DNA of 51,540 nt from Escherichia phage brachmannus. Every line of letters begins with the position of its first letter. Within the stretch, counting starts at the first letter, position 1. Made by a program: the position numbers and the translations under genes. The stretch is taken from the sequence record ON711395.1, one strand, 5' to 3'. The notes under the pieces were generated by a model. The model made no database searches, was not told where the DNA came from, and was given only the letters and a program-made list of their open reading frames with translations. Positions 2,192 through 27,546 of this stretch are shown here, one piece after another.

Positions 2192-3484
2192 ATGAGCGAA
2201 AAAACAAGGCTAGTTAAGGCCGATGGATACAACGAGATTTTCAAGGGTAGCAAGGGCAATGGGCGTGTGGAGTTGCCTTTCTTTATGCAAGGGTTCAAAT
2301 ACACCACGCACGCTGATTTTTACATTCGCGACGGCCTAGCAAAACGAATTATCGACGTTGTTCCAGAAGAAATGGTGACACCTGGATTTAATATTGATGG
2401 CGTGGAAGATGAGGAGAGTTTTAGATCTTTGTGGGATGAGAAGCGACTAAACGATAAAATCATTGATGCGCTTTGCTGGTCGCGTCTTTTTGGTGGCGCG
2501 GCAATCGTGGCAATCGTTCAGGATGGCAGGTCGTTAAAGTCACCTGCAGCGCCTGGTGCAATCCTTGAAGATGTTCGCGTTTACGATCGCTTTCAGGTTC
2601 GCGTGGAAAAGCGAGAAACTAATCCACGCAAGGTGCGATATGGTGAGCCATTAATTTACACCATTTCACCTGGTGCGGACTTGCCAGAATATCAGGTTCA
2701 CTATTCGCGAGTCTGTATTATCGACGGTGAGCGGCTACCAAATCAGCGACGTCAGTCAAATGATGGTTGGGGTGAGTCAATCCTGAATAAGCGATTGGTT
2801 GAGGCTATTTGTGATTACAACTACTGCGAAAACTTAGCAACTCAATTGTTGCGACGTAAGCAACAGGCAGTATGGAAAGCTAAAGGACTTGCCGATCTTT
2901 GTGATGATGATGATGGTGTTAACGCCGCACGTTTGCGCCTTGCTCAAGTTGATGATGAGGGTGGCGTAGGTCGTGCGATCGGCATTGATGCGGAAGATGA
3001 GGAATATGATGTTTTAAATTCTGATATTTCCGGCGTCGATTCATTTCTGGAAAAGAAGATGGATCGCATTGTATCTCTTTCCGGCATCCATGAAATCATC
3101 CTCAAAAACAAGAACGTTGGCGGTGTTAGCGCGAGCCAAAACACGGCGCTTGAAACCTTCTACAAGCTGATCGACAGAAAGCGAAAGGAAGAATACAAAC
3201 CAATCCTTGAATTTCTGATCCCGTTCCTGATTCAAGAACAAGAATGGAGTATTCAGTTTGCGCCGTTAAGCGTTCCAAGCGAAAAGGACCAGGCCGAGAT
3301 CTTGAACAAGAATATTGATTCTTTGAGCAAGGCTATTGACGGTCAATTCATGGATACAGAGGAGGCGCGCGACACATTGCGAGCCATTGCGCCTAACGTT
3401 AAACTAAAAGACGGCAATAACATTAAATTACCTGAGCAGGACGTAGAGCCGGAGCCAGGAACAACCGAGGGTAGCAATCAATGA
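2192..3484 (+). CDS. portal protein
   Basis: about 430 aa directly after terL; ORF-track start 2186 is TTG, ATG at 2192 has GGAG RBS; acidic C-terminus typical of portals. Confidence 0.75.
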   Translation: MSEKTRLVKADGYNEIFKGSKGNGRVELPFFMQGFKYTTHADFYIRDGLAKRIIDVVPEEMVTPGFNIDGVEDEESFRSLWDEKRLNDKIIDALCWSRLFGGAAIVAIVQDGRSLKSPAAPGAILEDVRVYDRFQVRVEKRETNPRKVRYGEPLIYTISPGADLPEYQVHYSRVCIIDGERLPNQRRQSNDGWGESILNKRLVEAICDYNYCENLATQLLRRKQQAVWKAKGLADLCDDDDGVNAARLRLAQVDDEGGVGRAIGIDAEDEEYDVLNSDISGVDSFLEKKMDRIVSLSGIHEIILKNKNVGGVSASQNTALETFYKLIDRKRKEEYKPILEFLIPFLIQEQEWSIQFAPLSVPSEKDQAEILNKNIDSLSKAIDGQFMDTEEARDTLRAIAPNVKLKDGNNIKLPEQDVEPEPGTTEGSNQ

Positions 3485-4236
3485 TAGTGAAAGGCGTCGT
3501 TAAACAATGGCGCTTTCCTGAAGCAAGCGAGCGGCAATTGCGCCGCTCAATTCAGGAGGCGATAAGGGATCTTGTTGTGATGATGCGCAGCAAAACAAAG
3601 GAAATGAAATTTGACGCGGACACCGAAGAAATCAACGCCGCAGAAGATGAGATTAGTAGCTTCGCGTTAAAGCTAATAGCTGGCATCGCCGCATCACTTC
3701 CGGCTATCGGTCTTGCTGTTTATAAATTCAACGCAAAGCAATTTATTAACGTAGCGAAATCAACGGGAGGCAAGTCAAATTCAGCCGTTATCATCCTTAT
3801 GGCTATTGGGGCCAATGCGAATGAGAGTTGGTATAGGACGCTATACGGTCAATGGCATGACATGACGATCGCATCTCTTCAAAAACTATTTGGAAACATT
3901 GTGTCTGACTGGTCAACAAATATCAGATCGGCAAACTTTCGCGGAATGAGAGATAGTCAGGTTAATGAATTGGCTGGCAAGAGGTTCGCAGTTTATAGCT
4001 CTTGGGGTAAGACAAGGGCGGAAAACATTATAGGCGCTTGGAATAGTAGACTCATGCGCCAGCGTCTGTATGATGCAAAAGTAACTCATTATTTTTGGCA
4101 TGGCATGCTTGATGACAGAGAGCGATTGCAGCATGTACAATGGGAAGGTAAGCGCATTGCGCTAGATTCTGAACATGATTTTCCTGGTGAGCCTTTCGGT
4201 TGTCGTTGTTGGGCCATACCAGATTGGAACAGTTAA
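3481..4236 (+). CDS. head morphogenesis protein (Mu F / SPP1 gp7-like minor head protein)
   Basis: 251 aa, start overlaps portal stop, canonical position after portal. Confidence 0.5.
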   Translation: MIVKGVVKQWRFPEASERQLRRSIQEAIRDLVVMMRSKTKEMKFDADTEEINAAEDEISSFALKLIAGIAASLPAIGLAVYKFNAKQFINVAKSTGGKSNSAVIILMAIGANANESWYRTLYGQWHDMTIASLQKLFGNIVSDWSTNIRSANFRGMRDSQVNELAGKRFAVYSSWGKTRAENIIGAWNSRLMRQRLYDAKVTHYFWHGMLDDRERLQHVQWEGKRIALDSEHDFPGEPFGCRCWAIPDWNS

Positions 4237-4246
4237 GAGGTATTAA

Positions 4247-5362
4247 ATGAAAGCAAAACAAAGATTTGATAGCGCCAAAGTAAAGGCGCACTTTGATGAT
4301 AACGGGTTTTTAGTTGATCGCCCTATCGTGGCGCGAATTGGTTTACAAGTCTATCAGACTCCTTTCGGTGAGCGCAGAGAATTTCGTCCGGCGTCCGAAG
4401 TATTCAAGGCCGACTCACTAGCCACCTTCGCAGGGAAGCCAGTCACGGTTGGTCACGTTACGGTAACTCCAGAAAACGCCGAAAAGGTTGTGGTTGGTTC
4501 TTGTGCTGGCGCTGGTGTGCCGAACGGGATCGGCGTAGAGGTTCCGTTAAGCATTTACTCAAAACGAGCAATCGAAAGCGCGAAGAAGCGAGACACGGCG
4601 GAAATTTCAGTTGGTTATACATCGGTTGATATTGATAAACCAGGCTGGGGCAATAATAAAACTGGTGAGTACGTTTTCGATGAGGATGTTAGCGAAGACT
4701 GGAAACCGGATTCTCCTGATTGGGTTGAGTTTGATGCAATCCAGACTGAAATCAAGGTAAACCACATCGCGTTAGTTTTCCGAGGTCGGGCTGGTATTGC
4801 GAAATTAAACCTTGATAGTCAGCAAGATTTTCCGTATAGTGACGAAGTTATTAACAACAAAGAGGATCAAATCATGACTGTAAAAATTAAACTGGATGGC
4901 GCTGTAGAATTTGATGTTCCGAAAGCAGTTGCGGATCACATTGAATCACTGAAAGCTGATGCCAAAGCACAGAAAGAAAAGGCGGACGGCTTGGAAGCTG
5001 AGCGCGATGCGCTGCAATCCAAAGTAGATGGCATTCAGGATCAGATTGATGCCGCAGTCAAGAAGGCCAAAGAAGATGCCGAGCAATATGCTCAATTAGT
5101 GGCAGACGCTAAAGAGTTAGGCATCAAGTGCGACGGTCTGGATGCGAAAGCAATCAAGGTTGCATACATCAAAGAAGTTATGGGCAATGACGTTTCCGAT
5201 AAAACTGATGCCTATATCGAAACAGCTTTCGACATCGCCAAAAACTCTGATAAAATGGCGGCGCAGCGTAAGAGCATTAAGGGTGACTCTTTCGCGAATG
5301 AAAAACAGGATGAAGCAGGTTCTAAGCTGAATCCTAACGCTCGTTTTGAGAAACTGAAATAA
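4247..5362 (+). CDS. putative prohead protease / scaffolding protein
   Basis: 371 aa; globular N-terminal domain plus long K/E/A-rich coiled-coil C-terminus; located between head morphogenesis and capsid genes. Confidence 0.5.
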   Translation: MKAKQRFDSAKVKAHFDDNGFLVDRPIVARIGLQVYQTPFGERREFRPASEVFKADSLATFAGKPVTVGHVTVTPENAEKVVVGSCAGAGVPNGIGVEVPLSIYSKRAIESAKKRDTAEISVGYTSVDIDKPGWGNNKTGEYVFDEDVSEDWKPDSPDWVEFDAIQTEIKVNHIALVFRGRAGIAKLNLDSQQDFPYSDEVINNKEDQIMTVKIKLDGAVEFDVPKAVADHIESLKADAKAQKEKADGLEAERDALQSKVDGIQDQIDAAVKKAKEDAEQYAQLVADAKELGIKCDGLDAKAIKVAYIKEVMGNDVSDKTDAYIETAFDIAKNSDKMAAQRKSIKGDSFANEKQDEAGSKLNPNARFEKLK

Positions 5363-16907: not shown

Positions 16908-16933
16908 TAACCAGCATTGCGCTGGTTTTTTTG
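16908..16933 (+). terminator. intrinsic terminator after HNH gene
   Basis: AACCAGC-ATTGC-GCTGGTT then T7. Confidence 0.65.
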
Positions 16934-16981
16934 TGCATTTATAATGAGCAAACCAATAAACAGCACAAAAGGTTAAAAGTC

Positions 16982-19900
16982 ATGGATAAATGTATGATAA
17001 GTGGCAGTAAGGGCGGAAGCAAAAAGCCATACGTGCCAAAAGAGATGGAAGATAACCTGATCTCGATAAACAAGATTAAAGTTTTGCTGGCTGTATCTGA
17101 TGGCGAGTGCGATCCAGACTTCACGTTGCGTGATCTTTATCTTGATGATGTTCCGGTTATTGCCAGCGATGGCACTGTTAACTATGAGGGGGTAACGGCT
17201 GAATATAGACCAGGTACACAGACGCAAGATTACATCCAGGGGTTTACTGACACATCAAGCGAGGTGACAGTTTCGCGAGATATTACAGCAGACAATCCCT
17301 ATATTATCTCTGTAACAAATAAAAATCTTTCTGCAATCAGAATCAAGATTCTGATGCCAGTTGGCATAAAACAGGAGGATAACGGCGATCTTGTTGGTGT
17401 AAGGGTTCAATATGCCGTAGATATGGCTGTTGATGGCGGTTCTTATAGCGAGGTTATGAGAGATGTAATTGACGGCAAGACAAGATCAGGATATGACCGC
17501 AGCAGAAGGATTGATCTTCCTAAGTTTGATGAGCGCGTTTTAATCAGGGTCAAGCGGCTGACTCCAGACAGCACATCTTCAAAGGTGACTGATAAAATCA
17601 AACTGCAAAGTTACGCTGAGGTTGTGGATGCAAAATTCCGTTATCCTCTGACTGGCCTTGTATTCGTAGAGTTTGACAGCGAATTGTTTCCTACGCAAAT
17701 CCCTAACATTTCTATAAAAAAGAAATGGAAGATTATTAATGTGCCAAGCAACTATGATCCAATATCTAGAGAATATCACGGGTCATGGGATGGGACTTTT
17801 AAAAAAGCGTGGTCAAATAATCCTGCTTGGGTTCTTTATGATCTGGTAACGAATCAGCGTTATGGACTTGACCAGCGAGAGTTAGGAATACAGATCGACA
17901 AGTGGAGCTTATACGAGGCTGGTGTTTACTGTGATCAGAAAGTTCCAGACGGTAAGGGCGGTACAGAGCCTCGCTACCTATGCGATGTGGTGATCCAGAA
18001 TCAGGTTGAGGCTTATCAGCTAATCCGTGACATTTGCTCAATCTTTCGCGGAATGAGCTTTTGGAATGGAGAGAGCTTATCAATCGTAATTGATAAACCG
18101 CGCGATCCATCATACGTGTTTACTAATGAAAACGTCATCAACGGTGATTTTCAGTACACAGCAGCAAGCGAAAAAAGCATGTACACGCAATGTAATGTGA
18201 CGTTTGACGACGAACAAAACATGTATCAGCAGGACGTAGAGGGGGTTTTTGATACTGAGGCGGCATTACGATTTGGATACAATCCAACAAGCATTACAGC
18301 GATCGGGTGTACACGCAGGAGCGAAGCGAATCGTCGCGGTCGGTGGGTTTTGAAAACAAACCTTAGAAGCACTACTGTAAACTTTGCTACCGGACTAGAG
18401 GGGATGATTCCATCCATAGGTGATGTGATTGCTATCGCTGATAATTTTCAGAGCAGCAATCTAACGTTAAATCTTTCGGGCCGAGTAATGGAAGTTTCAG
18501 GCTTGCAAGTTTTCGTTCCGTTTAAGGTTGATGCGCGTCCTGGTGATTTTATTATCATCAACAAGCCGGACGGAAAGCCAGTTAAGCGAACGATCTCAAA
18601 GGTGAGCGCAGACGGAAAAACCATTGAGTTAAATATTGGCTTTGGTTTTGATGTTAAGCCTGATACTGTTTTTGCGATTGACCGTACTGACCTTGCGTTG
18701 CAGCAATACGTTGTGACAACTATCAGCAAGGGTGATGACGAAAACGAGTTTACCTATTCAATCACGGCTGTGGAGTACGATCCGAACAAATACGACGAGA
18801 TTGATTATGGAGTAAACATTGATGACAGACCGACTTCAATTGTTCAGCCTGACGTGATGGCAGCGCCTGAGAACGTTAAGATCTCATCTTATTCTCGCGT
18901 CGTGCAGGGTGTTAGCGTTGAGACTATGGTTGTTTCATGGGATAAGGTTCCTTACGCATCGCTTTATGAAATGCAGTGGCGAAAAGGTGATGGTAACTGG
19001 CTGAATACGCCGCAGACAGCTAACAAAGAGATAGAGGTAGAAGGGATTTACTCTGGCAACTACCAAGTAAGGGTGAGATCCGTTTCTGCAAGCGGTAACG
19101 CTTCCCCGTGGTCAAAGATTGCAACCGCCACTCTGACAGGTAAAGTTGGCGAGCCAGGAGCGCCGATTAATCTTACGGCTTCTGATAATGAAGTTTTTGG
19201 CATTCGTGTCAAATGGGGTATGCCGGAAGGATCGGGCGATACGGCTTACATTGAGCTTCACCAATCGCCAGATGGGACGGTGGAAAACTCAAGTTTGCTT
19301 ACGCTGATCCCGTATCCTCAATATGAGTATTGGCATAGCACGTTACCAGCGGGTCAAGTTGTATGGTATAGAATCCGTAGCGTTGACAGGATCGGCAACG
19401 TTTCCGGCTGGACTGACTTTGTTCGCGGCATGGCGTCAGATGATGTTGAATCTGTTTTAGGCGACATTCTGGACAAGATTTTTGATACCGAAGCGGGTCA
19501 AGAAATCAAAGAGAACGCCATAGACAGTGCAAACAAAATCAAAGACCAGGCGCAATCAATCATCCAGAACGCATTGGCAAACGATGCCGATGTGAAGTGG
19601 ACGCGAGTACAAAACGGAAAGCGTAAGGCTGAATATGGTCATGCACTGGAGCTTATTGCTACCGAAACGGAGGCGCGAGTAACTCAAATCGAAGAGTTAA
19701 AGGCGTCAATTGATGAAGATATAGTTTCAAGTATCAAAACCGTTCAGGAAGCGATTGCCAATGAATCAGAGACGCGAGCTACTCAAGTGCAGCAGCTTGA
19801 TTCTAAATTTACGAAGGAAATAGACGGCGTAAAACGAGATACGGCTGCAAGCATTGGCGAGGTAAGGCAAACCATTACCAATGAATCAGAAGCGCGTGCG

Positions 19901-20560
19901 CAAGCCGTTCAGCAGCTTGACGCTAAGTTTTCGAAAGAGATTAATGACCTTAACGATGCAATCAAGGTTGATGTTGAGGCGAACATATCAGAAGTAAGAC
20001 AGGCTATCGCTAATGAGACAGAGGCAAGGGTTCAGGCTGACCAGGCTTTAACAGCCAAATTCGGAGACGTTGAATCAGCACTAGCCGAAAAACTTGATTC
20101 GTGGGCTAACGTTGATTCTGTTGGCGCTAAGTACGCTATGAAATTGGGCCTTACTTACAAGGGGCAGAAGTACAGCGCAGGAATGATCATGCAGTTGTCG
20201 CAATCTTCTCAAGGCCTGATCTCGCAAATCTTGTTCGATGCTAACAGGTTCGCGATCATGACTAGCTCTACTGGCGGTACGTTTACATTGCCGTTTGTAG
20301 TAGAAAATAACCAGGTGTTTATCAACAGTTTGTTGGTGAAAAACGGGTCCATTACTAACGCAATGATTGGTAACGTGATTCAGTCAAATAACTTTGTTCA
20401 GAATCAGCAAGGATGGAGGCTTGATAAAAATGGTAACTTTGAGAACTACGGAACGAGAGCGGGGGAAGGAGCTACAAAATTCACTAACGAAGGCTTAAAG
20501 GTGAAAGATGCAAATGGACGATTGAGGGTTGAGATAGGGAGAATAACCGGAAGTTGGTAA
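16982..20560 (+). CDS. central tail fibre / host specificity protein (lambda J-like)
   Basis: about 1190 aa; N-terminus GSKGGSKKPYVPKEMEDNL resembles lambda J N-terminus; alternative start ATG 16994; C-terminal coiled-coil repeats. Confidence 0.85.
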   Translation: MDKCMISGSKGGSKKPYVPKEMEDNLISINKIKVLLAVSDGECDPDFTLRDLYLDDVPVIASDGTVNYEGVTAEYRPGTQTQDYIQGFTDTSSEVTVSRDITADNPYIISVTNKNLSAIRIKILMPVGIKQEDNGDLVGVRVQYAVDMAVDGGSYSEVMRDVIDGKTRSGYDRSRRIDLPKFDERVLIRVKRLTPDSTSSKVTDKIKLQSYAEVVDAKFRYPLTGLVFVEFDSELFPTQIPNISIKKKWKIINVPSNYDPISREYHGSWDGTFKKAWSNNPAWVLYDLVTNQRYGLDQRELGIQIDKWSLYEAGVYCDQKVPDGKGGTEPRYLCDVVIQNQVEAYQLIRDICSIFRGMSFWNGESLSIVIDKPRDPSYVFTNENVINGDFQYTAASEKSMYTQCNVTFDDEQNMYQQDVEGVFDTEAALRFGYNPTSITAIGCTRRSEANRRGRWVLKTNLRSTTVNFATGLEGMIPSIGDVIAIADNFQSSNLTLNLSGRVMEVSGLQVFVPFKVDARPGDFIIINKPDGKPVKRTISKVSADGKTIELNIGFGFDVKPDTVFAIDRTDLALQQYVVTTISKGDDENEFTYSITAVEYDPNKYDEIDYGVNIDDRPTSIVQPDVMAAPENVKISSYSRVVQGVSVETMVVSWDKVPYASLYEMQWRKGDGNWLNTPQTANKEIEVEGIYSGNYQVRVRSVSASGNASPWSKIATATLTGKVGEPGAPINLTASDNEVFGIRVKWGMPEGSGDTAYIELHQSPDGTVENSSLLTLIPYPQYEYWHSTLPAGQVVWYRIRSVDRIGNVSGWTDFVRGMASDDVESVLGDILDKIFDTEAGQEIKENAIDSANKIKDQAQSIIQNALANDADVKWTRVQNGKRKAEYGHALELIATETEARVTQIEELKASIDEDIVSSIKTVQEAIANESETRATQVQQLDSKFTKEIDGVKRDTAASIGEVRQTITNESEARAQAVQQLDAKFSKEINDLNDAIKVDVEANISEVRQAIANETEARVQADQALTAKFGDVESALAEKLDSWANVDSVGAKYAMKLGLTYKGQKYSAGMIMQLSQSSQGLISQILFDANRFAIMTSSTGGTFTLPFVVENNQVFINSLLVKNGSITNAMIGNVIQSNNFVQNQQGWRLDKNGNFENYGTRAGEGATKFTNEGLKVKDANGRLRVEIGRITGSW
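19640..20060 (+). repeat. intragenic tandem repeats (three units of about 35 codons) in J-like gene
   Basis: protein repeats I(A/T)NE(S/T)E(A/T)R...VQQLD(S/A)KF(T/S)KEI. Confidence 0.6.
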
Positions 20561-20586
20561 AAAAGGGGGCATGGCCCCCTTTAATT
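20560..20586. terminator. bidirectional terminator between J and convergent minus-strand genes
   Basis: GGGGGC...GCCCCC stem flanked by A-run and T-rich tract. Confidence 0.65.
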
Positions 20587-21201
20587 TTAATCATAGTGCG
20601 ATGAATTTATAACCAAAACAGATGATGCCGTGTAAATACCAACAGGACCAGGAGTTTGCGCAACCTGCCTAGATAAAGAATATACCCCGTTGCCATACGC
20701 GGCAGCTTGAGACTCAAATATCATGAATCCACCTAAAGACGGATTGGGCACAGAGTTTAAAGCTGTTAGTGATGGCATGATGGCGCAAGGGTATCCCAAG
20801 TTAACGTCAAAAGCGATCCCGCTTACAGATACAAGTTTTGCATCCAAAGGCTTCATCTTTCCATGATAAACCATCTCACCATTAGCATTATAAAAAGCTA
20901 TTCCGTGACTACCAGGAGGAGTAACCATGTTGCTAAAAGCATAAACAAATACCTCGCCTTGATTGTCGGACTTTTCTATCTTTATTGCGTGCTTCCCACC
21001 ATTATTAAACTGAGTAAATGCTATGTATGATTTTGATGTTAACCTTACAAAAAAGAAGCACGGTCTATTTATTGGTATAGAAGTATTAAAAACGGTTCCT
21101 GTTCTTGCTGATATTTTCCCTTTATCTATAAGGTTAACAGGAGTGAAATCTGGACTTAACCACAATGAACCGTCCGGTTTTTTTATGCTCATCCCGTACA
21201 T
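20587..21201 (-). CDS. hypothetical protein (possible tail fibre-associated)
   Basis: ORF on minus strand; ATG at 21199-21201 with GGGGG RBS-like run (track start 21213 is TTG). Confidence 0.4.
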   Translation of the reverse strand: MYGMSIKKPDGSLWLSPDFTPVNLIDKGKISARTGTVFNTSIPINRPCFFFVRLTSKSYIAFTQFNNGGKHAIKIEKSDNQGEVFVYAFSNMVTPPGSHGIAFYNANGEMVYHGKMKPLDAKLVSVSGIAFDVNLGYPCAIMPSLTALNSVPNPSLGGFMIFESQAAAYGNGVYSLSRQVAQTPGPVGIYTASSVLVINSSHYD

Positions 21202-21203
21202 TA

Positions 21204-21482
21204 TTACCCCCAAAAAGTATATATATATCTTGAGTCAGATCCAGAAAGGCCACTCCATGTAACGGTATCACCACTTACACCCAACTTTGGAGCGCCTGGA
21301 TCGCCTCCTCGCCACGAATTAATTCCAACATATATTGCTTTCAAAGACTTACCTGGCGGCCTGTTTGAGTAGGTCTTACTGCCGGATGATTGGGTAAATT
21401 TATCCAAGAAAAAAACTGGAGTTAAAAGACCAGTAACATTTCTACCTTGCTCATCATATATTGCATACCCATATTCAGCCAT
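21204..21482 (-). CDS. hypothetical protein
   Basis: 92-aa ORF with GAGGTG RBS; ends in T5G5 homopolymer region abutting downstream ORF. Confidence 0.4.
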   Translation of the reverse strand: MAEYGYAIYDEQGRNVTGLLTPVFFLDKFTQSSGSKTYSNRPPGKSLKAIYVGINSWRGGDPGAPKLGVSGDTVTWSGLSGSDSRYIYTFWG

Positions 21483-21750
21483 TTTTGCACCTCAAATCAA
21501 TGAATTTTCTTTCATCTTGCCAACGGTTGATAAATTTAACTTCTTTATTGTCAACGCTCAACCTGTATTGCTTTTGGCTGAATCTGTTTTCGCGGACAGC
21601 ATTAATTTTAACTTCATGGAATCCGTTAACAGGGAATGTTTTAACGTTAAATTTTGCCGTGCAATCGATCTCCTTGAAGTTGCCAGTAGGCGAAGAAGAA
21701 CATCCGGTCAGAGCGGCTACGGTGGCGATAACTGCGATTAATTTTTTCAT
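21475..21750 (-). CDS. lipoprotein, candidate Cor/Llp-like superinfection exclusion protein
   Basis: signal peptide with lipobox LTGC; AAGGAG RBS; small size; located next to tail fibre genes with own promoter region. Confidence 0.45.
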   Translation of the reverse strand: MKKLIAVIATVAALTGCSSSPTGNFKEIDCTAKFNVKTFPVNGFHEVKINAVRENRFSQKQYRLSVDNKEVKFINRWQDERKFIDLRCKNG

Positions 21751-21806
21751 CTTCAATACTCCTTAGTTGTTGTTGGCTGTAACTATACACGATCCGACAA
21801 GCTGAG

Positions 21807-24545: not shown

Positions 24546-24577
24546 CCGCATATGCGGGGCTTTTTTAGTCTAACGTG
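24546..24577. terminator. bidirectional terminator after ssb
   Basis: AAAAAGCCCCGCA-TAT-GCGGGGCTTTTTT. Confidence 0.75.
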
Positions 24578-25089
24578 GTTGGTTTGTTTACCAGTGCCTC
24601 TACAACCGCTTTTAGCTCGTCAATTTCTTTTCTCATCTCATCGTTTTCCGCTTTCAGTTTCTTAACGTGGTGAATCAGTGGAACAGTGAGGCGGTCATAC
24701 ATAACGCCTTCCGCCACCATGCCATTACTTGAAGCAATGGCAGGATCTTCTCCTTCTTGCAGCGGTCGCCAGTGAACGTACTCCGGCGCAATTTCTCCAA
24801 CCTCTTCCGCGATTAGCCCGTACCATCCCCAATCTTTACGGTCGCTTTCACAAGTTGACCGATACCAAACAGGACGCATTTCAAGCATCAGATCCGCATA
24901 TTCATCAATAACCGATTCTACGCTGCGCTTATAACGAGAAGAGGAAGTGGAGCGTAAAACTTGCGAAACTCCAGCATTTGGATCAAGCCATAAGTTTGCT
25001 GATTGAGCGGTTGTGTTAAGATTAAATAAATAAAATGCATCGTTACCAGTTAGGGGGTAAAAACTCCCACTATACCTTCCGCTATCCAA
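24565..25089 (-). CDS. tail fibre C-terminal intramolecular chaperone-like domain protein (peptidase S74-like)
   Basis: SSSRYKRSVESVIDEY and YGLIAEEVGEIAPE resemble S74 chaperone domain motifs; C-terminal coiled coil; only TTG start available, likely fused with upstream ORF. Confidence 0.45.
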   Translation of the reverse strand: MDSGRYSGSFYPLTGNDAFYLFNLNTTAQSANLWLDPNAGVSQVLRSTSSSRYKRSVESVIDEYADLMLEMRPVWYRSTCESDRKDWGWYGLIAEEVGEIAPEYVHWRPLQEGEDPAIASSNGMVAEGVMYDRLTVPLIHHVKKLKAENDEMRKEIDELKAVVEALVNKPTTLD

Positions 25090-25238
25090 CTCGGACGATA
25101 GATCATTTTGTTTAGATACAACTTCAACTTATTGTCAACATCAGTAGTTGATGCTTTTCCTGCAACATCCTGTTTTAGTGTTGAAACGTCATTTTTCAGC
25201 TTCGTTATATCACTAGGTATAACAGTGACTGTAGCCAT
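25050..25238 (-). CDS. small coiled-coil protein, probable N-terminal part of split fibre/chaperone gene
   Basis: 62-aa ORF ending in T5C5 run; downstream ORF continues in -1 frame. Confidence 0.35.
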   Translation of the reverse strand: MATVTVIPSDITKLKNDVSTLKQDVAGKASTTDVDNKLKLYLNKMIYRPSWIAEGIVGVFTP

Positions 25239-25250
25239 TTTCCTAACTCC

Positions 25251-25529
25251 TTAAGCCCATTCTCTAATAGGCCGATCTAACTCAACCACGTATCCATTAA
25301 AAATTACGGCATCAAACTTATCATCAATGATTCGCACATTAACGAAATAGCCGTCGTTCTTTCGCGCAATCTCCTCGCCATCGTCATATCGTGCAATTAC
25401 TGTATAAGTATTGCCGATTACATCGAGCAGGGTTGCATCCTGAATGGATTCGTTTTCGTTCCATTCAATTTCTTCCAGAAAGGCGGAAAACTCCGCCTTG
25501 TCTACAAATTTCAGTGTTAAATCACGCAT
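25251..25529 (-). CDS. hypothetical protein (tail fibre-associated)
   Basis: ATG overlapping stop of tail fibre gene. Confidence 0.4.
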   Translation of the reverse strand: MRDLTLKFVDKAEFSAFLEEIEWNENESIQDATLLDVIGNTYTVIARYDDGEEIARKNDGYFVNVRIIDDKFDAVIFNGYVVELDRPIREWA

Positions 25530-27508
25530 TATACAATTTCCCCCAATTGATGATCTGTTAGTGCCTTGTGCCATATACGGAAGTTTCTAACGTGACCGAA
25601 AAGATGGCGTTCGCCTGTACTTGTTTGTCCGCCAATCCTTATAGTAGCCGTTGATACTATATATCTCCATTCCGTTTTTGTTTCGCTTGATATTCTGGCA
25701 TTACTTACACAACAAGTATTGTAATCACTCTTTACTCTCATTCCTATGATCATCTTTTTTAGTTTTGCATTCTCGTAAACCCTTCTTTTTGATCCACCTA
25801 TATCGCAATAAGGGAATCCATCATTATCGCCATCGGCAGGCCCGAAAGCAAGAATAATTGCCGCACCAGATTGATGACCTCCAGTATCGAAAACACGAGG
25901 CGCAGCATTTGGCGTTATATACCAGTTCTTATGTACCTCACAAAGAACAGTAAAAGGAAGATTATAAAGGTTATTCTTGATTGGGATTGTCACCATATCG
26001 CTTGCCCGTGTTACTGGAGTCTCTTCTGTAATAATAAACGATGAAGCGCACACACCTCCTTCAACTTGAGGGGTAGCAATATAAATATAATCACCTGCAC
26101 CAGTTCCCCCTCCATCTTTTGCTGGTGCATACTGCACCATTGCACCGATCATATTTTCTGTATCAAGCGCTTTAATTGTTGCCTCAAAGAAAATCCATTT
26201 GCTTGCTTCATCTTTAACAGCCCTTGCAGTAATACGATTTGCAGCGCCGCCAGTTTTTTCAATTGATAAATCTGTCAGATTTACGTAAGCATCACCCAAA
26301 AATGCATAAGAAGATCCATCGTAGTTTTCAAATCGTAATCGGCATCTTAAATTTGGAGTCCCACTTTGCGCCCTGCATGATATGGTTACATACTTTTCAT
26401 TTCCTGTTACATCAAAACCTCTACTGCCGGAAACGGTTACTATGTTAATCGCTGAAGTTTGTCCTACCATTTCTGGTTTTAATGTAAATTTTGCGTACTG
26501 GAATCCGAAATCATCTACACCTGATCTATCTAAGATCATATTTGATGACTTGTTCCATTTTGAAGGATTGGTACTATTTATAAGAAGGTTTGTTCTTTGC
26601 CCCTCAATGAGCAGACCATCCTTTTCAAATCTAGGTTCATCAATAGCAGCATTAGTAAGCACCCCAGACTTATTAATGTAAGTAGCGGTTGATGCTCGTT
26701 TAAACTTAACTATCTTGTCACCTGGCATCGTGATCTCATCGTCACCTATAACAATCTTTTTGTATGACGGCGAGAATCCGGTAATCATATCCAGGGAGTC
26801 ATTAAATGGTATCCACACGTCCGGCAACGGTTGCAATAAGTCCTTGTAAGGTTCTGCCGCCTGCTTTGCGTATTCCTCCGCTTGATCTCGCGCACTTTCA
26901 GCTCCTGCCTTTGCAGTGTTCGCAGCGTCACGCGCGGATTCAGCGCCAGACTTTGCTGCTTCAGCGCCAGTCTTTGCAGTGTTTGCAGCGTCGCGCGCGG
27001 ATTCAGCGGCAGCCTTTGCAGTATCAGCACCTTTCTTGCTATTCGCTGCATTTGTTGCGCTTGTCTTCGCGTTATTCTCGCTGGTTTTAGCTGCCTGCTG
27101 GCTTGCTGCTGCTGCGTCAGCATTTGTCTTTACGTCTTCCTGGATCTTCTGTAGCTTATCCCAATCAAAATCCTTGATGATCTCAATAAATCCAGCAAAC
27201 TCCGATTCCTTCCCCTGGTAATAACGCAGCGTTTCCGCTACGTCTTGCGCAAGACCGTCAACCGTTAACGAGTCATGAAGCAAGATCAGGTAATTTGTCT
27301 TCTGGACTACCGCGCCGCCAGTAGTAATTGCGCGAATGCTTGTATCGCTAATCACTTCTGTAATCACAGCAGCTTGCAAAGGTTGAGCAAGAAAGAAAAT
27401 AGTTGCGCCTGGGCGAATCAATGTTAATTGCTCACGCCATTTTGTACCGTAACCAGTTACATAACCTTGCTCGTCCATAGACGCTTGGCCTTGTCTGTAA
27501 ATCGCCAT
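25529..27508 (-). CDS. tail fibre protein
   Basis: about 660 aa; Ala/Ser/Thr-rich tandem repeats typical of fibre shafts; C-terminal lectin-like region (NFRIWHKALTDHQLGEI); ATG 27506-27508 with AGGAGG RBS. Confidence 0.7.
   Translation of the reverse strand: MAIYRQGQASMDEQGYVTGYGTKWREQLTLIRPGATIFFLAQPLQAAVITEVISDTSIRAITTGGAVVQKTNYLILLHDSLTVDGLAQDVAETLRYYQGKESEFAGFIEIIKDFDWDKLQKIQEDVKTNADAAAASQQAAKTSENNAKTSATNAANSKKGADTAKAAAESARDAANTAKTGAEAAKSGAESARDAANTAKAGAESARDQAEEYAKQAAEPYKDLLQPLPDVWIPFNDSLDMITGFSPSYKKIVIGDDEITMPGDKIVKFKRASTATYINKSGVLTNAAIDEPRFEKDGLLIEGQRTNLLINSTNPSKWNKSSNMILDRSGVDDFGFQYAKFTLKPEMVGQTSAINIVTVSGSRGFDVTGNEKYVTISCRAQSGTPNLRCRLRFENYDGSSYAFLGDAYVNLTDLSIEKTGGAANRITARAVKDEASKWIFFEATIKALDTENMIGAMVQYAPAKDGGGTGAGDYIYIATPQVEGGVCASSFIITEETPVTRASDMVTIPIKNNLYNLPFTVLCEVHKNWYITPNAAPRVFDTGGHQSGAAIILAFGPADGDNDGFPYCDIGGSKRRVYENAKLKKMIIGMRVKSDYNTCCVSNARISSETKTEWRYIVSTATIRIGGQTSTGERHLFGHVRNFRIWHKALTDHQLGEIV
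26880..27120 (-). repeat. intragenic tandem repeats in tail fibre gene (Ala-rich shaft repeats)
   Basis: repeated DNA blocks CTTTGCAGTGTT(C/T)GCAGCGTC(A/G)CGCGCGGATTCAGCG; protein AESARDAANTAK repeats. Confidence 0.6.
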
Positions 27509-27526
27509 TTGTAAAATCCTCCTAAA

Positions 27527-27546
27527 TAGCACTTTTTGCTAATGAC
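27527..27546 (+). promoter_or_regulatory. conserved motif copy TAGCACTTTTTGCTAATGAC (antisense to adjacent tail fibre gene start)
   Basis: abuts RBS of tail fibre gene on opposite strand. Confidence 0.5.

What the first reader, a model, noticed from the sequence alone, without database searches (positions are those of the whole stretch)
20587..21482. Second ORF pair meeting at a T5G5 homopolymer
ORF 21204-21482 ends ACT TTT TGG GGG TAA and the next ORF continues in the -1 frame, so one added base would fuse them into a protein of about 297 aa. The downstream ORF also has its own ATG with the G-run acting as a Shine-Dalgarno sequence, so ordinary stop-start coupling is equally possible. The junction mirrors the T5C5 junction at 25050-25089.
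Basis: seen in the sequence. Interest (0 to 1): 0.4.

Follow-up and report, generated by a model that had tools for sequence, protein, structure and literature searches.

The report
Two coupled receptor-binding genes, no frameshift
The T5G5 run is an ordinary stop-then-restart junction between two separate, conserved phage tail-tip genes that probably form the receptor-binding module, not a frameshift site or sequencing error, although distant phages do carry the same two genes fused into one.

Summary
The sequence is as described: on the minus strand a 92-aa ORF (A, 21204-21482) ends ACT TTT TGG GGG TAA. A 204-aa ORF (B, ATG 21201 to 20587) follows 2 nt later in the -1 frame.

The window is a Warwickvirus (Drexlerviridae) phage, 99% identical here to phage tonijn. 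A and B sit with a Cor-like lipoprotein gene in the variable receptor-specificity locus next to the J-like tail-tip gene.

In 92 related loci the pair is always two genes. A always ends ...YIYT[F/Y]WG-stop and B always starts at its own ATG (M[Y/F]G). T5G5 occurs only in Warwickvirus; elsewhere the same residues are coded ACA TTC TGG GGA and similar. Spacer length (0-5 nt) and frame offset (0, 1, 2) vary. There is no canonical slippery heptamer and no stimulatory RNA fold. The G-run is a strong Shine-Dalgarno site. So this is translational coupling, not programmed frameshifting or a homopolymer error.

Distant homologs (Pantoea Vid5, Pectobacterium Sabo, about 12 clusters) are natural A-B fusions, so the two proteins act as one unit. 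The "mirror" junction at 25050 is different: a 1-nt deletion relative to relatives.

The parts
16931..20560 (+). J-like central tail fibre / tail-tip gene. The longest ORF starts at a TTG at 16931 and the true start was not checked. It is convergent with the A/B operon.
   Evidence: ORF list. Annotated 'tail protein' or 'J-like tail tip protein' in tonijn, Poky and FritzSarasin.
20562..20582 (.). GC-rich hairpin (GGGGGC-loop-GCCCCC) flanked by A/T runs. It is a shared bidirectional intrinsic terminator between the J gene and gene B.
   Evidence: Terminator scan. On the minus strand the sequence reads aaagggggccatgcccccttttttt.
20587..21201 (-). Gene B, 204 aa. This is the 'hand-like' protein that databases call 'membrane associated protein' (phrog_425). 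It is the predicted monomeric receptor-binding protein of the tail tip.
21202..21203 (-). 2-nt spacer (TA) between the stop codon of A and the ATG of B.
   Evidence: The spacer is 0-5 nt in orthologs.
21207..21216 (-). T5G5 run. It consists of the third base of ACT plus the codons TTT TGG GGG, which encode the conserved C-terminus T-F-W-G of A. The G5 part (21207-21211) serves as the Shine-Dalgarno site for B.
   Evidence: Duplex with the 16S anti-SD is -9.7 kcal/mol, in the top 1.1% of all ATG upstream regions in the window. Orthologs code the same residues as ACA TTC TGG GGA, ACG TAT TGG GGG and so on.
21204..21482 (-). Gene A, 92 aa. This is a small beta-sandwich protein that databases call 'outer membrane protein' (phrog_557). 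It is the partner of B.
   Evidence: phrog_557 at E 4e-21. Homologs are all 91-93 aa. AF2 model is all-beta with pLDDT 70. Its profile matches the N-terminal ~85 residues of the natural A-B fusion proteins.
21488..21493 (-). GAGGTG Shine-Dalgarno site for gene A. It lies inside the end of the lipoprotein gene, whose stop overlaps A's start (ATGGCTGA).
   Evidence: -6.9 kcal/mol.
21475..21756 (-). Cor-like lipoprotein gene with signal peptide and lipobox (LTGC). It is the candidate superinfection-exclusion factor and the first gene of the three-gene operon.
   Evidence: Translation MKMKKLIAVIATVAALTGCSS. phrog_1119 'Cor superinfection exclusion protein' at E 6e-8. NCBIfam Cor scores 18.5 bits, below the 31-bit cut-off.

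Best explanation
A (92 aa) and B (204 aa) are two separate genes that are translationally coupled. They form an operon with a Cor-like lipoprotein gene in the receptor-specificity locus next to the J-like tail-tip gene of a Warwickvirus phage.

The T5G5 run is a by-product of codon choice for the conserved C-terminal residues T-F-W-G of A. Its G-run, together with the stop codon 2 nt before B's ATG, acts as the ribosome-binding and re-initiation signal for B, so the two proteins are made in similar amounts.

No frameshift, read-through or missing base is needed.

Functionally (inferred), B is a monomeric receptor-binding protein that caps the trimeric J tip, and A is its partner subunit. The likely receptor is BtuB, by transfer from phage Bas04. 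The lipoprotein would block the same receptor from inside the infected cell.
For: Shown:
- The junction is ACT TTT TGG GGG TAA ta ATG.
- In 92 related loci from Warwickvirus, Dhillonvirus, Nonagvirus, Stx prophages (Traversvirus), a ~108-kb unclassified phage with P1 TciA/B-like genes (Cyrano), and Webervirus and Eclunavirus, the pair is always two ORFs.
- A always ends YIYT[F/Y]WG followed directly by a stop. B always begins M[Y/F]G at its own ATG.
- The same residues are coded by ACA TTC TGG GGA, ACG TAT TGG GGG and ACA TAC TGG GGA. T5G5 is therefore not conserved, while frame-0 coding is conserved.
- The spacer is 0, 1, 2, 3 or 5 nt and the frame offset is 2, 1 or 0. This includes two near-identical IMG/VR loci that differ by 'aa' versus 'aaa' in the spacer.
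- All A homologs are 91-93 aa. All close B homologs are 194-216 aa.
- The G-run pairs with the anti-SD at -9.7 kcal/mol, in the top 1.1% of ATGs in the window. The TTG at 21213 has none, at -0.7 kcal/mol.
- There is no stable RNA structure after the junction (z = +0.77).
- GenBank and RefSeq annotate two CDS in tonijn, Poky, FritzSarasin, 933W (L0126/L0127), P27, Zar3M, BRET, Sushi, Ec_L1 and JLBYU60.

Function:
- The locus downstream of gpJ determines receptor specificity in these phages (PMC8594841; bioRxiv 10.64898/2026.04.02.716166).
- The same pair was modelled as a tail-spike tip cap in PMC12309495.
- Bas04 FritzSarasin, whose A and B are 91% and 88% identical to the window's, uses BtuB (BASEL S5 table).

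A and B act as one unit:
- About 12 of 148 representatives (50%-identity clusters) are 309-325 aa with the B match starting at residue ~94-115.
- Their N-termini match the A profile, with domain i-E down to 5e-7.
- Vid5 gp23 and Sabo CDS0036 are single ORFs directly after J.
- Sabo's relatives (Amona and others) are split with an ATGA stop/start overlap.
Against: - Most lineages (8 of about 11 distinct junction types) do place B in the -1 frame with the short -1 stretch open. A rare P-site slip of tRNA-Gly on G GGG next to the stop codon therefore cannot be excluded chemically.
- No expression or proteomic data exist for this phage.
- Virion LC-MS/MS of Vid5 reported 11 proteins, and its fused gp23 is not among those named in the main text (PMC6266253).
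- The evidence for virion presence of the homolog in Littlefixvirus is only an SDS-PAGE band of matching size (PMC12309495).
- The receptor assignment is by transfer from an 88%-identical relative, not tested.
Confidence: 0.88

Rival explanations
1. Programmed -1 ribosomal frameshifting (or transcriptional slippage) at T5G5 produces an A-B fusion protein of ~298 aa alongside A and B, in the manner of the lambda G/GT tail chaperones.
For: B is in the -1 frame and the -1 frame is open across the junction. A P-site tRNA-Gly could re-pair on G GGG while the A site holds a stop codon (inference). Most orthologous junctions also have offset 2. Natural fused homologs show that a fusion can be functional.
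Against: - There is no X XXY YYZ heptamer: T TTT TGG fails at the YYZ positions.
- T5G5 is absent outside Warwickvirus, while the amino acids are kept.
- The offset is 1 in Zar3M, and 0 in Ec_L1 and in one of two near-identical IMG/VR loci.
- There is no downstream stimulatory structure.
- B has its own conserved ATG and a strong SD.
- The linker would be 2 residues, against about 8-12 in the natural fusions.
- 5-nt runs are too short for efficient RNA polymerase slippage (established knowledge).
Confidence: 0.04
2. Sequencing or assembly error in the homopolymer. The true gene would be a single ~298-aa ORF.
For: Homopolymer indels are a common artefact of some sequencing platforms. Fused homologs exist elsewhere.
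Against: The identical T5G5-stop-ta-ATG junction is present in independently sequenced phages from Denmark, the USA and Switzerland and in metagenomic contigs. All 92 loci have a stop straight after WG. A's C-terminus and B's N-terminus are each conserved as termini.
Confidence: 0.01
3. A and B are not virion proteins but 'moron' or cell-envelope factors (the database names are 'outer membrane protein' and 'membrane associated protein'). On this reading they would act with the lipoprotein in superinfection exclusion or host modification.
For: PHROG category 'moron' for phrog_425. They are co-transcribed with a Cor-like lipoprotein and lie opposite to the tail genes in this window. They sit next to lom in Stx phages. 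In phage Cyrano they occur away from obvious tail genes. Fused gp23 is not named among the Vid5 virion proteins.
Against: Neither protein has a signal peptide or a transmembrane segment (sequences). The B fold matches a solved RBP. In Sushi, Ec_L1, JLBYU60, Vid5 and Sabo the genes follow J directly on the same strand. There are no PADLOC hits. Membrane affinity was computed as low in PMC12309495.
Confidence: 0.08

Closest known systems
Receptor-binding protein of small siphophage Oekolampad (Bas18) bound to LptDE, PDB 9RPT (bioRxiv 10.1101/2025.07.07.663478)
   Different: Only 16% sequence identity. Oekolampad RBP is 254 aa and targets LptD. The window's type is linked to BtuB through Bas04 and comes with a separate 92-aa partner gene (A). 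Whether Oekolampad has such a partner was not checked here.
[quoted passage not shown] 2025, PMC12309495)
   Same: The same two protein families: A profile against JLBYU60 gp25 gives E 1e-16, and B profile against gp26 gives E 4e-30. The Stx-phage homologs are 45-54% identical. Same two-gene arrangement, and the same misleading database names.
   Different: That paper models three copies of A plus one B on the spike. The natural A-B fusions found here argue for 1:1 instead. The paper does not discuss the junction, the fused forms or internal repeats in the parts read.
Translationally coupled adjacent genes in bacterial and phage operons (stop codon overlapping or within a few nt of the next start, with the SD inside the upstream gene)
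   Same: The stop of A is 2 nt before B's ATG. A strong SD is formed by A's last codons. The arrangement is kept, with variable spacer, in all orthologs. Relatives use TAATG (JLBYU60) or ATGA (Amona) overlaps.
   Different: Coupling itself (dependence of B translation on A translation) was not measured.
Programmed -1 frameshift of tail assembly chaperones (lambda G/GT)
   Same: Two adjacent tail-region ORFs with the second in the -1 frame.
   Different: The defining features are absent: no conserved slippery heptamer, and the downstream ORF has its own start and is made on its own. Position and function also differ, since G/GT lies between the major tail protein and tape-measure genes.
T5 pb5 / Llp
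   Same: A separately encoded monomeric RBP attached non-covalently to the tip of the central fibre, paired with a lipoprotein that blocks the same receptor.
   Different: No sequence or detected fold similarity. pb5 is about 640 aa and a single gene.

Membership tests
Programmed -1 ribosomal frameshift site | Slippery heptamer X XXY YYZ in the upstream frame | tested here: not met
   The frame-0 codons are ACT TTT TGG GGG TAA. T TTT TGG does not fit at the YYZ positions. Only a single-tRNA slip on G GGG is conceivable.
Programmed -1 ribosomal frameshift site | Slip site and frame relation conserved among homologs | tested here: not met
   T5G5 occurs only in Warwickvirus. Spacer is 0-5 nt and offsets are 2, 1 and 0 across 92 loci.
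Programmed -1 ribosomal frameshift site | Stimulatory element (downstream hairpin or pseudoknot) | tested here: not met
   The 106 nt from the junction fold at -17 kcal/mol against -19.2 +/- 2.9 for shuffles, z = +0.77.
Programmed -1 ribosomal frameshift site | Downstream ORF depends on the shift (no independent initiation) | tested here: not met
   B has an ATG with an SD of -9.7 kcal/mol and a conserved N-terminus starting at that Met.
Translationally coupled gene pair | Upstream stop within a few nt of, or overlapping, the downstream start | tested here: met
   TAA-ta-ATG in the window. Spacing of 0-5 nt or 1-4 nt overlaps in homologs.
Translationally coupled gene pair | Ribosome-binding site embedded in the end of the upstream gene | tested here: met
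   GGGGG sits 5 nt before the ATG. The conserved W-G codons (TGGGGR) supply it in nearly all the close (>=40% identical) orthologs; one locus has TGG AGG, and the distant Sushi and Ec_L1 pairs end differently.
Translationally coupled gene pair | Translation of B depends on translation of A | not testable with these tools
   This needs reporter fusions with premature stops in A.
RBP module of the gpJ-adjacent receptor-specificity locus of small siphoviruses | Encoded directly next to the J-like tail-tip gene in the hypervariable locus | tested here: met
   B ends 27 nt from the end of the J gene across a shared terminator. The position is the same in relatives.
RBP module of the gpJ-adjacent receptor-specificity locus of small siphoviruses | Accompanied by a superinfection-exclusion lipoprotein | tested here: met
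   A lipobox protein is encoded at 21475-21756. phrog_1119 Cor at E 6e-8. It scores below the NCBIfam Cor cut-off.
RBP module of the gpJ-adjacent receptor-specificity locus of small siphoviruses | Fold related to an experimentally proven RBP of this locus | tested here: met
   [not shown]
RBP module of the gpJ-adjacent receptor-specificity locus of small siphoviruses | Present at the tail tip and binds the outer-membrane receptor | not testable with these tools
   Only indirect evidence: Bas04 uses BtuB, and there are AlphaFold-based models in the literature.

The most novel reading that the evidence does not exclude
A and B together would be one receptor-binding unit built from three tandem, anciently duplicated beta modules: A, the N-half of B and the C-half of B.

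Each module opens with the same motif, [Y/H]G-h-x-h-x4-G-x(8-10)-P-[VL]. These motifs hold most of the invariant residues, yet they are modelled with low confidence in the monomer.

The three motifs would dock one-to-one onto the three chains of the J trimer, in the way a pseudo-threefold monomer such as a PAAR protein caps a trimeric spike.

Evolution has repeatedly toggled this unit between a single polypeptide (Vid5, Sabo) and a 1+2 split (E. coli and Stx phages, Amona). That would fix the stoichiometry at 1 A : 1 B per tail, not 3:1 as previously modelled.
Probability: 0.3. Interest if true: 0.5.

Novelty: already known. Interest (0 to 1): 0.2.

Why it matters
As a frameshift candidate it does not matter. 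It is a normal coupled gene junction that public annotations already split correctly.

The locus itself is of practical interest, because it is the cassette that sets which outer-membrane protein these common coliphages (and Stx prophages) recognise.

Two points from this check could help people who engineer or predict host range:
- The "outer membrane protein" and "membrane associated protein" labels are misnomers for a receptor-binding module.
- The small and large proteins occur naturally fused, so they should be treated, swapped and modelled as one 1:1 unit.

Tried and rejected
- **Pfam, NCBIfam, PADLOC:** no family for A or B.
- **PDB sequence search:** nothing.
- **BLASTP of A against B:** not significant.
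- **hhalign of A against the halves of B:** only suggestive. E is 1.6e-4 over a 14-residue motif and 0.04 over 85 columns.
- **A-profile hits on B-only proteins:** weak, with domain i-E of 0.005-0.05. The three-repeat idea therefore stays a hypothesis.
- **FhuA as receptor:** I first assumed FhuA because of the Cor-like gene and the FhuA-dependent JLBYU60. I rejected this for two reasons. JLBYU60's pair is only ~25-28% identical to the window's. The 88-91% identical Bas04 is listed as BtuB-dependent.
- **Literature search for L0126/L0127 of 933W:** found nothing.
- **Vid5 proteomics paper:** does not name gp23 among the detected virion proteins in the main text, and supplementary Table S3 was not read.
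- **Promoter scan:** no consensus sigma-70 promoter on the minus strand upstream of the lipoprotein gene.

Full report
**1. Observation**

On the minus strand, ORF A (21204-21482, 92 aa, ATG start) ends ...AGA TAT ATA TAT ACT TTT TGG GGG TAA. After two bases (TA) comes ATG TAC GGG ATG AGC..., the start of ORF B (ATG at 21201, stop at 20587-20589, 204 aa).

- B is in the -1 frame relative to A. The ORF listing extends B back to a TTG at 21213 inside the run.
- TTTTTGGGGG occurs once in the window, at 21207-21216.
- Adjacent 5+5 homopolymers of any kind occur 3 times against 1.9 +/- 1.3 in dinucleotide-preserving shuffles. The run is not unusual by itself.
- The supposed twin at 25050-25089 reads GTTTTTACCCCCTAA, that is T5-A-C5.

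**2. Context**

The window is a Warwickvirus (Drexlerviridae, T1-like) coliphage. Region 20400-21800 is 99.2% identical to phage tonijn and 97-99% identical to Poky, vB_EcoS-95 and the JLBYU and BEK phages.

- A and B follow a 93-aa lipoprotein gene at 21475-21756. It has the signal/lipobox sequence MKMKKLIAVIATVAALTGC and matches PHROG Cor at E 6e-8, but scores below the NCBIfam Cor cut-off.
- The lipoprotein's stop overlaps A's start (ATGGCTGA).
- The three genes run convergently towards the 1209-aa J-like tail-tip gene (16931-20560, + strand) and share a GC hairpin terminator with it at 20562-20582.
- GenBank and RefSeq annotate A and B as two CDS in tonijn, Poky and FritzSarasin.

**3. Ortholog comparison**

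tblastn finds the B family in 401 phage records and the A family in 277. I compared the junction in 92 loci: 12 annotated phage records and 79 IMG/VR contigs, plus the window.

- In all loci with a recognisable A, A ends ...Y-I-Y-T-[F/Y]-W-G (one W-R) followed immediately by a stop. B starts at its own ATG with M-[Y/F/H]-G.
- The residues T-F-W-G are coded ACT TTT TGG GGG only in the Warwickvirus group. Elsewhere they are coded ACA TTC TGG GGA/GGG (Stx phages such as 933W L0126/L0127, P27 and phage 86), ACG TAT TGG GGG (Zar3M), ACA TAC TGG GGA (Cyrano and CMS-2020a types) and ACT TAT TGG GGG (BRET type).
- The homopolymer is therefore not conserved, while the frame-0 amino acids are. This is the signature of selection on A's own C-terminus.
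- The spacer is ta, tt, tc, aa, gc, c, aaa, gtgtt, gtgtc, gttgt, caata or atatt, or is absent. The frame offset is mostly 2, but 1 in Zar3M, and 0 in Ec_L1 and in one of two near-identical IMG/VR loci that differ only by aa versus aaa.
- JLBYU60 uses a TAATG overlap, and the Pectobacterium phage Amona uses an ATGA overlap.
- In the 5.8-billion-protein collection all A homologs found are 91-93 aa. All close B homologs are 194-216 aa and cover only the B part of an artificial A+B query.

**4. Mechanism at the junction**

- There is no X XXY YYZ heptamer. Tandem slippage would require tRNA-Trp to re-pair on UUG.
- The only conceivable event is a P-site slip of tRNA-Gly on G GGG next to the stop codon. 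Nothing supports it.
- There is no downstream structure (z = +0.77), no conservation, and B initiates independently.
- The G-run pairs with the 16S anti-SD at -9.7 kcal/mol, 5 nt before the ATG. This is stronger than 98.9% of all ATG contexts in the window. The TTG at 21213 has no SD.
- The conserved W-G codons (TGGGGR) supply this site in nearly all close (>=40% identical) orthologs. One locus has TGG AGG, and the distant Sushi and Ec_L1 pairs end differently.
- The best reading is termination-reinitiation or SD-driven coupling that gives similar amounts of A and B.
- A sequencing error is excluded, because the junction is identical in independent isolates and metagenomes.

**5. What the genes are**

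- There are no Pfam, NCBIfam, PADLOC or PDB-sequence hits.
- The PHROG names are 'outer membrane protein' (A, phrog_557) and 'membrane associated protein' (B, phrog_425). Neither protein has a signal peptide.
- AlphaFold2 models B as a two-domain all-beta protein (pLDDT 87.5, pTM 0.82). The very conserved first ~20 residues have low confidence.
- That RBP is a monomer encoded in the same gpJ-adjacent locus with an exclusion lipoprotein (bioRxiv 10.1101/2025.07.07.663478).
- A is a small beta-sandwich (pLDDT 70) with only generic matches.
- The BASEL papers and a 2026 preprint show that this locus tracks receptor specificity.
- Matusiak et al. 2025 describe the same pair, an 'Ig-like' small protein plus a 'hand-like' 23-kDa protein. 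They found it in JLBYU60, Stx phage 24B and a Pseudomonas podovirus, and model the hand-like monomer capping the spike trimer. The only experimental hint is an SDS-PAGE band.
- FritzSarasin (Bas04), whose A and B are 91% and 88% identical to the window's, is listed as using BtuB. BtuB is therefore the inferred receptor.
- My initial guess of FhuA was dropped, because FhuA-dependent JLBYU60 carries only a ~25-28% identical version.

**6. Unexpected result: natural fusions**

A full HMMER scan of 1.84 billion representatives with the B profile gave 148 hits.

- Most are 200-235 aa and start at residue 1-5.
- About 12 are 309-325 aa, with the B match starting at residue ~94-115.
- Their N-terminal extensions carry A's motifs: M-x-E-[W/Y]-G......GSGSK[S/T]Y......[I/V]SGNTV[S/T]W....
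- These extensions match the A profile, with domain i-E of 5e-7 to 2e-3 in six of them.
- Cultured examples are Pantoea phage Vid5 gp23 (326 aa) and Pectobacterium phage Sabo CDS0036 (318 aa). Both lie directly after J on the same strand.
- Sabo's syntenic relatives (Amona, Abuela, Koroua, Ymer, Pappous, Taid) have the split form, with a 95-aa A ORF and B joined by ATGA.
- The family therefore switches between fused and split states. This is Rosetta-stone evidence that A and B work together, probably 1:1.
- The natural linker is about 8-12 residues. A hypothetical shift here would give only 2.

**7. Repeat hypothesis (inference)**

- A, the N-half of B and the C-half of B each open with [Y/H]G-h-x-h-x4-G...P-[V/L]. 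In the window these are EYGYAIYDEQGRNV..TPV, MYGMSIKKPDGSLW..TPV and SHGIAFYNANGEMV..KPL. These positions are the invariant ones in each alignment.
- hhalign gives E 1.6e-4 for the motif between A and the C-half of B. It also gives a collinear 85-column alignment of A with the N-half of B at E 0.04.
- The six predicted strands of A fall at nearly the same positions as those of the N-half of B.
- This suggests a three-module, pseudo-threefold adaptor for the J trimer. It is not proven.

**8. Verdict**

- The frameshift or fusion interpretation is not supported for this phage.
- The genes and their arrangement are already annotated and discussed in the literature, so novelty is low.
- The fused/split polymorphism and its 1:1 implication are the only mildly new points.

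Noticed in passing
window 24565-25238 (- strand), especially 25111-25113: The ORF pair 25050-25238 (62 aa) and 24565-25089 (174 aa) corresponds to a single annotated CDS, 'chaperone of endosialidase', in the close relatives JK16 (gp82, 675 nt) and XY3 (738 nt). The window has AAA at 25111-25113 where both relatives have AAAA. The T5-A-C5 further downstream is identical in JK16. This split is a 1-nt deletion or sequencing error relative to relatives, unlike the A/B junction.
   Followed up: partly
window ~24565-27532 versus L092 (tonijn 18142-20883): The lateral tail-fibre locus is mosaic. Tonijn is 99% identical at the RBP locus but has a single 2742-nt fibre gene here. The window's version instead matches swan01, JK16 and XY3 at 97-98%.
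   Followed up: partly
L097 (Pectobacterium phage Amona) ~3980-4270; L096 (Sabo) 3980-4936: Sabo has a fused A-B gene (318 aa). Six or more syntenic relatives have it split with an ATGA overlap. In Amona the deposited annotation calls only a 126-nt ORF where a 95-aa A-like ORF (MSDYGLFTYINGTSFD...) is readable.
   Followed up: partly
phage records MG065643, MG065649, MG065657, MG065680: Records named 'Campylobacter phage' (49,946 bp, unannotated) carry this E. coli Drexlerviridae-type locus at 63-73% protein identity. The host label looks doubtful.
   Followed up: no
L004 (933W) 3001-3282: The alignment of A to 933W starts at locus position 3001. L0126 is annotated from 3055, while P27 and phage 86 annotate the longer form. 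The Stx-phage A gene appears to use a non-ATG start, and L0126 is probably annotated too short.
   Followed up: no
window 21141-21201 (B residues 1-20) and 20845-20908 (B residues ~98-119): The most conserved residues of B (G3, G11, W14, P17, P21; G100, G108, L119) lie in segments that AlphaFold models with the lowest confidence (pLDDT 43-60 and ~80). This is as expected for segments that fold only on docking to a partner, either the J trimer or A.
   Followed up: partly
L007 (phage Cyrano, 108 kb) 2998-3896; L011 (CMS-2020a): The A/B pair also occurs in ~108-kb phages among P1 Tci-like and Ead/Ea22-like genes, with no tail gene in the 6-kb view. This is the only context seen that does not fit a tail-tip role.
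   Followed up: no
[not shown]
   Followed up: partly
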